From Eledone cirrhosa (lineage: Eukaryota), in NCBI GenBank assembly GCA_964016885.1, contig OZ024740.1, forward strand, positions 184,202,001-184,266,000: 64,000 bases of DNA, in the 5' to 3' direction. Made by a program: the position numbers and the translations under genes. Below are positions 8,129 to 9,641 of this stretch, piece by piece. Within the stretch, counting starts at the first letter, position 1, and every line of letters begins with the position of its first letter. A model generated the notes under the pieces. It had not been told where the DNA came from. It did not search any database and saw only the letters and a program-made list of their open reading frames with translations.

Positions 8129-8352
8129 TTATATATATATATATATAAATATGTATACGTACATACATATATGTATACAAACGTACAGTAGTATGCATAT
8201 ATATACATACATGCACACATATATATATATGTACGTATGGGTTTACTGAACATTTATGATAATGCTAGGTTTCTTTGTAAACAAACATCCCGAATTAAGC
8301 CGTACAGTGTTTAGCAACCATCGTTGCCCTTTTGTTCAACACTGACAGAGGA

Positions 8353-8395
8353 ACAATCTACTAGTTTCAAACTTATTAGCTATCGACAGCACCGT
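8353..8395 (-). ncRNA. Degenerate hammerhead (inverted copy)
   Basis: Same motif with the core mutated to CTGTCGA and mismatches in the stems. Confidence 0.55.
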
Positions 8396-8517
8396 ATACC
8401 TTCCTGCCAGATGATTGAACGTCTGAAAGTATATACTTTCCTTATGCATATTAACGGCTGAGCAGCCTAATTTGCATATCGAGTTAGTTAACATTCAATC
8501 ATCTGGCTTGAAGGTAT

Positions 8518-8560
8518 ACGGTGCTGACGATAGCTAATAAGCTTGAAACTAGTACATCGT
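8518..8560 (+). ncRNA. Minimal type I hammerhead ribozyme
   Basis: ACGGTG-CTGACGA-TAGCT(AATA)AGCTT-GAAA-CTAG-TA-CATCGT: stem III is the palindrome ACTAGT and the cleavage triplet is GUA. Confidence 0.8.
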
Positions 8561-8946
8561 TCCTTTGTCAGTGTTGCACAAAATGTCAACGATGGTTGCT
8601 AAACACTGTAGGCTTAATTCGGGATGTTTGTTTACAAACAAACCGAGCATTATAATAAATGTTCGGTAAATCCATACGTACATATATATATGTGTGCATG
8701 TATGTATATATATATACATACTACTTTATGTCTGTATACATATATGTATGTACGTATACATACTTATAATTAAGTAACAGCCGTACTAAGAGTGAGAAAT
8801 GAAATTTCGTTTCAGTTTTTCCATTTATCGATTTCGGTGCGCCCGGCCGATTAACTCACTCGATATGCAAATTAGGCTGCTCAGCCGTTAATATGAACAA
8901 GGAAAGTATATACTTTCAGACGTTCAATCATCTGGCAGGAAGGTAT

Positions 8947-8989
8947 ACGGTGCTGACGATAGCTAATAAGCTTGAAACTAGTACATCGT
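8947..8989 (+). ncRNA. Minimal type I hammerhead ribozyme (second tandem copy)
   Basis: Identical to 8518-8560, 429 bp downstream. Confidence 0.8.
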
Positions 8990-9641
8990 TCCTTTGTCAG
9001 TGTTGAACAAAAGGGCAGCGATGGTTGCTAAACACTGTACGGCTTAACTCGAAATGTTTGTTTACAAACGATCCGAGCATTATAATAAATGTTCGGTAAA
9101 TCTATACGTAGATATATATATGTGTGCATGTATGTACATATATACATACTACTGTACGTATGTATACATATATGTATGTACGTATACATACTTATATTTA
9201 AGTAACAGCCGTACTAAGAGTGAGATATGAAATTTCGTTTCATTTTTTCCATATATATATATATATATATATATATATATATATATATATATATATATAT
9301 ATATATATATATATAGAGAGAGAGAGAGAGAGAGAGAGAGAGAGAGAGAGAGAGAGAGTAAAGCATGTCCAGAGAATTATTTAGATAATATATATACATC
9401 ATCTCTACTCCCAATCAGCATAATTAACCACACAATAAATCAATTAGACCAGGCTATAAGAATAAAATGCACCTATGAAGAAACAGTAAATAAATACGCC
9501 ACAGCGGCGTCTTCGCGTCCAACCGCTATTGAATATTTACCCAATATTTCAACAGCACGTGGAAATTAATTAAATATACGGTCAACCATACATCATTAGG
9601 TAAAAATTAATGTTATATACATACTAGGATTAAATCACGAA

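What the first reader, a model, noticed from the sequence alone, without database searches (positions are those of the whole stretch)
8146..9251. Inverted plus tandem 429-bp unit with obligate-dimer minimal hammerheads
Seen: one antisense copy followed by two sense copies. Stem III is only the palindrome ACUAGU, so the two tandem ribozymes could pair with each other. Both sense ribozymes are identical although their flanks differ at scattered sites, while the antisense copy has a broken core. Known: inverted plus tandem pseudo-LTR geometry is typical of Penelope insertions. Inference: an ORF-less PLE satellite RNA with a 429-nt monomer. Read-through would also give a dsRNA hairpin of more than 300 bp.
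Basis: partly seen in the sequence, partly recalled or inferred. Interest (0 to 1): 0.75.

Follow-up and report, generated by a model that had tools for sequence, protein, structure and literature searches.

The report
Two-armed Penelope-type hammerhead retrozyme copy
This is one ageing copy of a non-coding 429-base repeat whose self-cutting-RNA motif occurs over ten thousand times in this animal genome; its two back-to-back arms, only one with a 59-base tail, were likely written by a borrowed Penelope-type enzyme copying one probably circular RNA, a known kind of element.

Summary
The geometry is real: an antisense arm (8144-8491) joined head-to-head to 1.8 sense units (8491-9251), with intact type I hammerheads 429 nt apart and a broken one in the antisense arm. 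It is one insertion of a large ORF-less family: 10,216 exact matches to three hammerhead 30-mers. In 56 of 60 classifiable two-armed loci exactly one arm carries a ~59-nt tail, ends sit in (TA)n, and both arms share subfamily alleles. That is the Penelope-like (PLE) footprint on a non-LTR retrozyme. Corrections: the ribozyme is the canonical palindromic-helix-III type, not 'minimal', and dimer-favoured by prediction only. The identical sense ribozymes are not exceptional and genomic copies decay about neutrally; selection shows only between subfamilies (compensatory stem changes). Read-through would fold a ~345-bp hairpin that blocks the double hammerhead, so this locus is likely a dead end. 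No parent PLE or RNA data found. The kind is in print, and this scan noted the same pattern on other DNA, probably including this family (e1-8665316). Interest 0.35.

The parts
8130..8143 (.). (TA)n target tract at the outer end of the antisense arm; it abuts a LINE fragment that is cut off here
   Evidence: homologous LINE copies continue differently
8144..8491 (-). Antisense arm, unit positions u23-~369, without the tail
8354..8394 (-). Broken hammerhead: core A6 to U, one helix II and two helix I changes
8491..8828 (+). First sense copy, 5'-truncated (u92-428), joined head-to-head to the antisense arm and running through the tail into the next unit
8519..8559 (+). Type I hammerhead 1, palindromic helix III (8548-8553), predicted cut after 8554
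8829..9251 (+). Second sense copy, whole unit (u1-423), with tail
8865..8872 (+). Octamer motif ATGCAAAT, shared with the 467-nt sister family; promoter role inferred, name of motif recalled
8906..8913 (+). TATA-like box about 40 nt downstream of the octamer; role inferred
8948..8988 (+). Type I hammerhead 2, identical to hammerhead 1, predicted cut after 8983
9197..9251 (+). Tail (~59 nt in the family, u370-428) between the two fixed 3' end sites; holds a short hairpin; present on this arm only
9251..9358 (.). (TA)32(GA)22 tract at the outer end of the sense arm

Best explanation
This is one aged, two-armed insertion of an abundant ORF-less hammerhead repeat family (a metazoan non-LTR retrozyme), likely written into a (TA)n tract by a borrowed Penelope-like reverse transcriptase/endonuclease copying one, probably circular, RNA. 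Shown: family size, no coding partner in the units, two fixed 3' ends, one tail per two-armed insertion, shared alleles between arms, covarying hammerhead stems between subfamilies. Inferred: source arrays are transcribed (possibly from the unit's octamer/TATA block); two neighbouring hammerheads pair through ACUAGU, cut out ~429-nt monomers that a host ligase closes; a dimeric PLE enzyme nicks both strands of a TA tract and primes once at each of two start sites 59 nt apart; both cDNAs run through the ribozyme site and unit junction, stop at scattered points and are joined head-to-head. This particular copy is likely a dead end: its read-through RNA would lock one ribozyme in a long hairpin, and the only whole promoter-like block on the sense strand lies upstream of just one ribozyme.
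For: Exact 30-mer counts 1360, 6079 and 2777 for three helix I variants, controls 0. Of 146 loci, 82 have head-to-head arms; of 60 pairs with both outer ends classifiable 56 are tail/no-tail, 2 tail/tail, 2 neither (p 9e-13 against 0.5; 17 of 18 in the positional chr-1 sample); 23 pairs had one unclassifiable end. Both end sites carry TTAT(A) matching the TA target. In 55 loci, 70 of 71 copies that reach u<=12 are preceded by the unit's own tail and 1 by the inverted arm, none by foreign sequence (62 automatic, 9 read by eye). Longest ATG ORF 58 aa. Arms of one locus share derived alleles 0.0051 per site against 0.0011 after permutation, 0 of 10000 (38 loci). 113 of 258 arms exceed one unit. 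Helix I pair 122-158 is G.U, A-U or U.G by subfamily (31 of 33 copies T/G in the T set); with the 467-nt sister family 6 of 17 pairs change on both sides and the core and ACUAGU are invariant. PLE tail, two start sites, both-strand nicking and predicted dimer: PMC11167929; inverted copy and one-sided tail: PMC8557442, PMC3846280; retrozyme circles and PLE as proposed driver: PMC7229834.
Against: No parent or driver PLE was found: the neighbouring PLE (10024-11928) has its own unrelated pLTR, and a second family keeps its own 3' UTR in 28 of 30 copies. Cleavage, transcription and circles are not shown. A circle and an uncut homogeneous multimer give the same footprint, and PMC11167929 found ribozyme cleavage dispensable for insertion in vitro. 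Only 1 of 9 Xenopus dimers cleaved in vitro (bioRxiv 2026.07.22.740005). Arm concordance is incomplete (A243C: both 5, one arm only 3; four other recurrent sites show no concordance), and the window's own three copies share no derived allele. Gene conversion could also make arms alike. Long arrays show DNA-level duplication (period 5 in L191). Rfam has no hammerhead hit here.
Confidence: 0.8

Rival explanations
1. Same family and PLE driver, but the template is an uncut linear multimer from long source arrays; the hammerhead and circles are not part of the copying cycle.
For: Arrays of 6-12 units exist. Arm 5' ends are not enriched at the cut site (4 of 78 against 6.1 expected). [quoted passage not shown]
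Against: Stems covary and the core is invariant across subfamilies and a 60%-identical sister family, so the ribozyme was under selection in source lineages. Units within L143 and L157 look star-like, as from one monomer.
Confidence: 0.3
2. These are only pLTR remnants of an autonomous PLE not yet found, with tandem units made later at the DNA level.
For: Retrozymes resemble pLTRs in Xenopus (bioRxiv 2026.07.22.740005). Same-strand fusions of a PLE 3' region to the unit occur at L118, L261, L184, L188.
Against: Upstream of u1 is the unit's own tail in 70 of 71 cases. The four fusions join at four different unit positions; two involve a PLE family that has its own 3' UTR. In 60 loci with about 3.5 kb upstream, 8 had PLE ORF hits and none showed the unit as a recurring pLTR.
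Confidence: 0.1
3. The locus itself is functional: a selected dimer ribozyme or dsRNA hairpin source.
For: Both sense ribozymes are intact and identical over 67 nt; a 345-bp hairpin is predicted.
Against: 52 of 86 family copies are as intact by core-and-stem criteria, and identical pairs occur at 4%. Each window copy is 2.5-3.9% from the family majority, like the median 2.9%. The locus lies among decayed LINE and PLE fragments.
Confidence: 0.05
4. A DNA-level foldback or MITE-like element, the inverted arms being terminal repeats.
For: Outer ends look like inverted repeats in TA.
Against: Outer ends differ by the tail, inner ends are scattered over the whole unit, many loci have one arm only, and the unit carries a covarying ribozyme.
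Confidence: 0.03

Closest known systems
Metazoan non-LTR retrozymes (Cervera and de la Pena 2020, PMC7229834, passages read; Li, Clavereau and Pollet 2026, bioRxiv 10.64898/2026.07.22.740005, parts 1-3 of 5 read)
   Same: ORF-less tandem units of 150-450 bp, GC under 45% (36% here), a type I hammerhead per unit, monomers to multimers; axolotl motifs have a palindromic helix III or a U.U at the base of helix II and cleave better as dimers; PLEs proposed as drivers.
   Different: The passages read do not describe head-to-head arms or a one-sided tail for retrozymes ('inverted' has 0 hits in PMC7229834). Here RNA, cleavage and circles are untested, and no homologous PLE pLTR was found.
Insertion units of EN+ Penelope-like elements (Arkhipova et al. 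2013, PMC3846280; Craig et al. 2021, PMC8557442, passages read; Frangieh et al. 2024, PMC11167929, parts 1-2 of 4 read)
   Same: Partial tandem plus an inverted 5'-truncated copy, tail at one end only, microsatellite/AT-rich targets, two internal RT start sites bounding the tail.
   Different: No ORF; tail ~59 nt rather than 30-40; the whole element is the repeat; TTAT(A) microhomology at both end sites, whereas the anole enzyme starts without homology.
Newt satellite 2 and canonical dimer-type metazoan hammerheads (PMC4209133 passages; PMC2220036 passage citing Coats et al. 1994, which was not held)
   Same: Short palindromic helix III rescued by a double hammerhead; an internal snRNA-type promoter is reported for newt satellite 2, and this unit has an octamer and TATA-like box upstream of the ribozyme.
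   Different: Promoter activity here is inferred from motifs only; Rfam hammerhead models do not hit.

Membership tests
Non-LTR retrozyme | Short (150-450 bp), low-GC, non-coding tandem unit | tested here: met
   429 nt, GC 0.357, longest ATG ORF 58 aa
Non-LTR retrozyme | Type I hammerhead in at least two consecutive units | tested here: met
   Cores at 8524 and 8953; covariation; no Rfam hit
Non-LTR retrozyme | Dispersed multi-copy family, monomers to multimers | tested here: met
   10,216 exact motif matches; arrays up to 12 units
Non-LTR retrozyme | No LTR/PBS/PPT and no attached ORF | tested here: met
   Upstream of u1 is the unit's own tail; PBS and PPT were not searched for separately
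Non-LTR retrozyme | Self-cleavage and accumulation as linear and circular RNA | not testable with these tools
   No RNA holder listed; folding only
EN+ PLE insertion footprint | Inverted 5'-truncated copy joined head-to-head to a partial tandem | tested here: met
   82 of 146 loci
EN+ PLE insertion footprint | Tail at one end only, two fixed 3' ends | tested here: met
   56 of 60 classifiable pairs
EN+ PLE insertion footprint | Target-site duplication | tested here: inconclusive
   Ends lie in (TA)n; left LINE does not resume on the right
Autonomous PLE or its pLTR | RT + GIY-YIG ORF regularly flanked by this repeat | tested here: not met
   sample of loci, not the whole genome
min-HHR of PLEs (PMC4209133) | No helix III/loop 3; long helix II (7-8 bp) | tested here: not met
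   Helix III ACUAGU present, helix II 4 bp
Dimer-type (double) hammerhead | Inactive or weak as monomer, active as dimer | tested here: inconclusive
   Predicted only: P 1.6e-3 against 1e-7, nearest-neighbour model without tertiary contacts

The most novel reading that the evidence does not exclude
A self-transcribing circular-RNA replicon family (octamer/TATA block, double hammerhead, tail hairpin, conserved in a 60%-identical sister family) whose thousands of insertions record a dimeric Penelope-type enzyme rolling round one RNA circle from both nicked strands, one subunit at each of two start sites; hetero-junctions with two PLE families may point to the drivers.
Probability: 0.3. Interest if true: 0.6.

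Novelty: new member of a known kind. Interest (0 to 1): 0.35.

Why it matters
That PLEs mobilise animal retrozymes, and do so from circles, is proposed in PMC7229834 and bioRxiv 2026.07.22.740005 but not shown in the parts read. A family with over 10,000 motifs, a strict one-tail rule and allele-matched arms gives genomic evidence for a PLE driver and defines the substrate (two start sites, TA target) for a direct in vitro test. The locus itself is an ordinary old copy, and the pattern recurs across this scan.

Tried and rejected
Rfam: no hammerhead among the 150 of 311 rows shown or in the focused scan. Pfam: 0 families for four flanking fragments; the PLE and LINE labels rest on RT/endonuclease-like motifs, and 'Neptune-like' is recalled. 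Neighbouring PLE as parent: rejected, 1 of 24 other copies has a unit piece nearby and the pLTR is unrelated. L118's PLE as parent: rejected. Co-location with the neighbour's pLTR: 25 of 167 loci, but 3 of 9 control loci too. A-to-I scars: A>G 143 against T>C 95 (p 0.016, one of six tests), no hyper-edited copy; not accepted. 5' ends at a start site: u100-115 13 of 39 against 5.8 in one set (window chosen after seeing the data), 2 of 15 in another; a hint only. 5' ends at the cut site: no excess. Sequencing runs: no RNA holder listed; three contig runs of unknown kind were laid, no evidence on expression. Coats et al. 1994 not held. One folding script crashed; the two-molecule cofold was not repeated. 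Literature searches for retrozyme + inverted + tail + Penelope and retrozyme + cephalopod listed no paper on such a family; only listings were seen for PMC11722881, PMC8969392 and PMC6431247, and the preprint's supplements were not seen.

Full report
Observation. The window holds an antisense arm at 8144-8491 and a sense arm at 8491-9251. With u1 = 8829, the antisense arm is u23-~369, the first sense copy u92-428 and the second u1-423. Two identical type I hammerheads start at 8524 and 8953, with helix III reduced to ACUAGU and predicted cuts after 8554 and 8983. The antisense hammerhead has a core change and three stem changes. The three copies are 92-93.5% alike.

Family. The window lies in a 3.0-Gb genome. 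Three 30-nt hammerhead variants differing at one helix I base match exactly 1360, 6079 and 2777 times, with 0 for the reversed controls; the window copy belongs to the smallest group. Periods run from about 420 to 445 nt and arrays reach 12 units. Copies near the window type are a median 2.9% from their majority. My locus samples were chosen by similarity to the window copy or by position on the largest contig, so they are not random.

Ends. Outer ends fall at two fixed sites about 59 nt apart, both ending in TTAT(A) and running into (TA)n. Of 146 loci, 82 have head-to-head arms. Of 60 pairs with both ends classifiable, 56 have the tail on exactly one arm; 23 further pairs had one unclassifiable end (p 9e-13). 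The window obeys the rule. Inner ends are scattered and not enriched at the ribozyme cut. PMC8557442 and PMC3846280 (passages) describe the inverted copy and one-sided tail for coding PLEs; PMC11167929 (parts 1-2 of 4) shows that the tail lies between two internal RT start sites, that both strands are nicked and extended, and predicts a dimer.

No ORF. Where a copy reaches u<=12 it is preceded by the unit's own tail in 70 of 71 cases. The PLE fragment beside the window (10024-11928) is a separate family with its own pLTR. One locus, L118, has a PLE ORF ending directly on the unit, but 28 of 30 copies of that family keep their own 3' UTR; the other two are L118 itself and L261, fused at a different unit position. 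These fusions may be template switches or target deletions. The driver is not identified.

One template. Opposite arms of a locus share derived alleles 4.6 times more than permuted pairs (0 of 10000, 38 loci), and whole subfamily haplotypes appear on both arms (L023, L096, L101). Concordance is not complete, the window's own copies share none, and gene conversion is not excluded. 113 of 258 arms are longer than one unit, so the template was intact across the cut site: a circle or an uncut multimer. I favour the circle because the ribozyme is kept by selection in source lineages and PMC7229834 (passages) shows circles for this class; this step is inferred. Some long arrays were expanded later as DNA (period 5 in L191, period 2 in L011).

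Ribozyme. By PMC4209133 (passages) this is the canonical small-palindromic-helix-III form, not min-HHR. In the 8491-9000 transcript the double hammerhead has P about 1.6e-3, either monomer about 1e-7. Among genomic copies picked without the ribozyme the core is not clearly better kept than flanks: 14 against 14.6 expected, 15 against 19.4; one set gave 6 against 13.1 with all alleles and another 9 against 4.3 with rare alleles. The pooled, biased set gave 21 against 31.9. Between lineages the picture is clear: pair 122-158 switches G.U, A-U, U.G, and a 467-nt sister family, 60% identical end to end, keeps the core and ACUAGU while changing helices I and II on both sides (6 of 17 pairs; 8 haplotypes, few independent events). 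It also keeps the octamer block (73%); PMC2220036 (passage) cites an snRNA-type promoter in newt satellite 2.

This locus. Read-through would pair 8144-8491 with 8851-9196 (94% paired) and bury hammerhead 2; the double hammerhead then costs about 145 kcal/mol. The first sense copy lacks u1-91, so the only whole promoter-like block on the sense strand precedes one ribozyme. The copy is therefore likely a product, not a source. No RNA data could test this.

Verdict. A new member of a known kind: a non-LTR retrozyme with a PLE insertion footprint. Searches listed no paper on this family or on two-armed retrozymes. Earlier AI notes of this scan report the same pattern in this and other genomes, including a 422-nt unit with ends 59 bases apart that is probably this family (not confirmed: the sequence look-up returned nothing); my tail count preceded those look-ups, and they are not independent support. 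Their label 'cephalopod' was not tested here.

Noticed in passing
window 5438-5637: A second, unrelated two-armed stub in (TA)n with a ~60-nt one-sided tail and a type I hammerhead on the minus strand (C3 at 5503) whose helix III is the palindrome ACAAUUGU.
   Followed up: partly
window 10024-11928: 5'-truncated Neptune-like PLE of an abundant family (2975 first-look candidates); its pLTR has a hammerhead-like motif with CAGAAGA in place of CUGANGA in nearly all aligned copies, and its own optional tail.
   Followed up: partly
L022:853-1312, L193-L211: 467-nt sister family, about 60% identical to the unit, young (95-99% alike), same octamer, ACUAGU, two 3' ends and two-armed insertions.
   Followed up: partly
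L157, L149, L171, L174: 442-nt subfamily with about 17-25 fixed differences but an unchanged hammerhead (loci were picked by the hammerhead motif).
   Followed up: partly
L118:1634 (minus), L261, L184, L188: Same-strand fusions of PLE 3' regions to the unit without a TA tract; the L118 and L261 joints lie about 14 nt apart near the ORF end of one family.
   Followed up: partly
L012:1979-2083: Unit arm joined head-to-head to a pLTR piece of the Neptune-like family: a possible mixed two-armed insertion, single case in 167 loci.
   Followed up: partly
L191 (G000:C1:149817000-149826500): 12.5-unit array in which units i and i+5 are nearly identical: recent DNA duplication or assembly artefact.
   Followed up: partly
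window 48281-52904: Tandem array of a ~100-bp TA-flanked hairpin element (GGGTCCC...GGGACACC), with a single relative at 5180-5295.
   Followed up: no
window 11927-13290: About 2.1 tandem copies of a ~703-bp unit directly after the Neptune-like PLE's 3' end.
   Followed up: no
window 6000-8128 and 13431-16710 (minus): Two decayed LINE-like elements with RT-like reading frames; the first is cut off at the finding's left end.
   Followed up: partly
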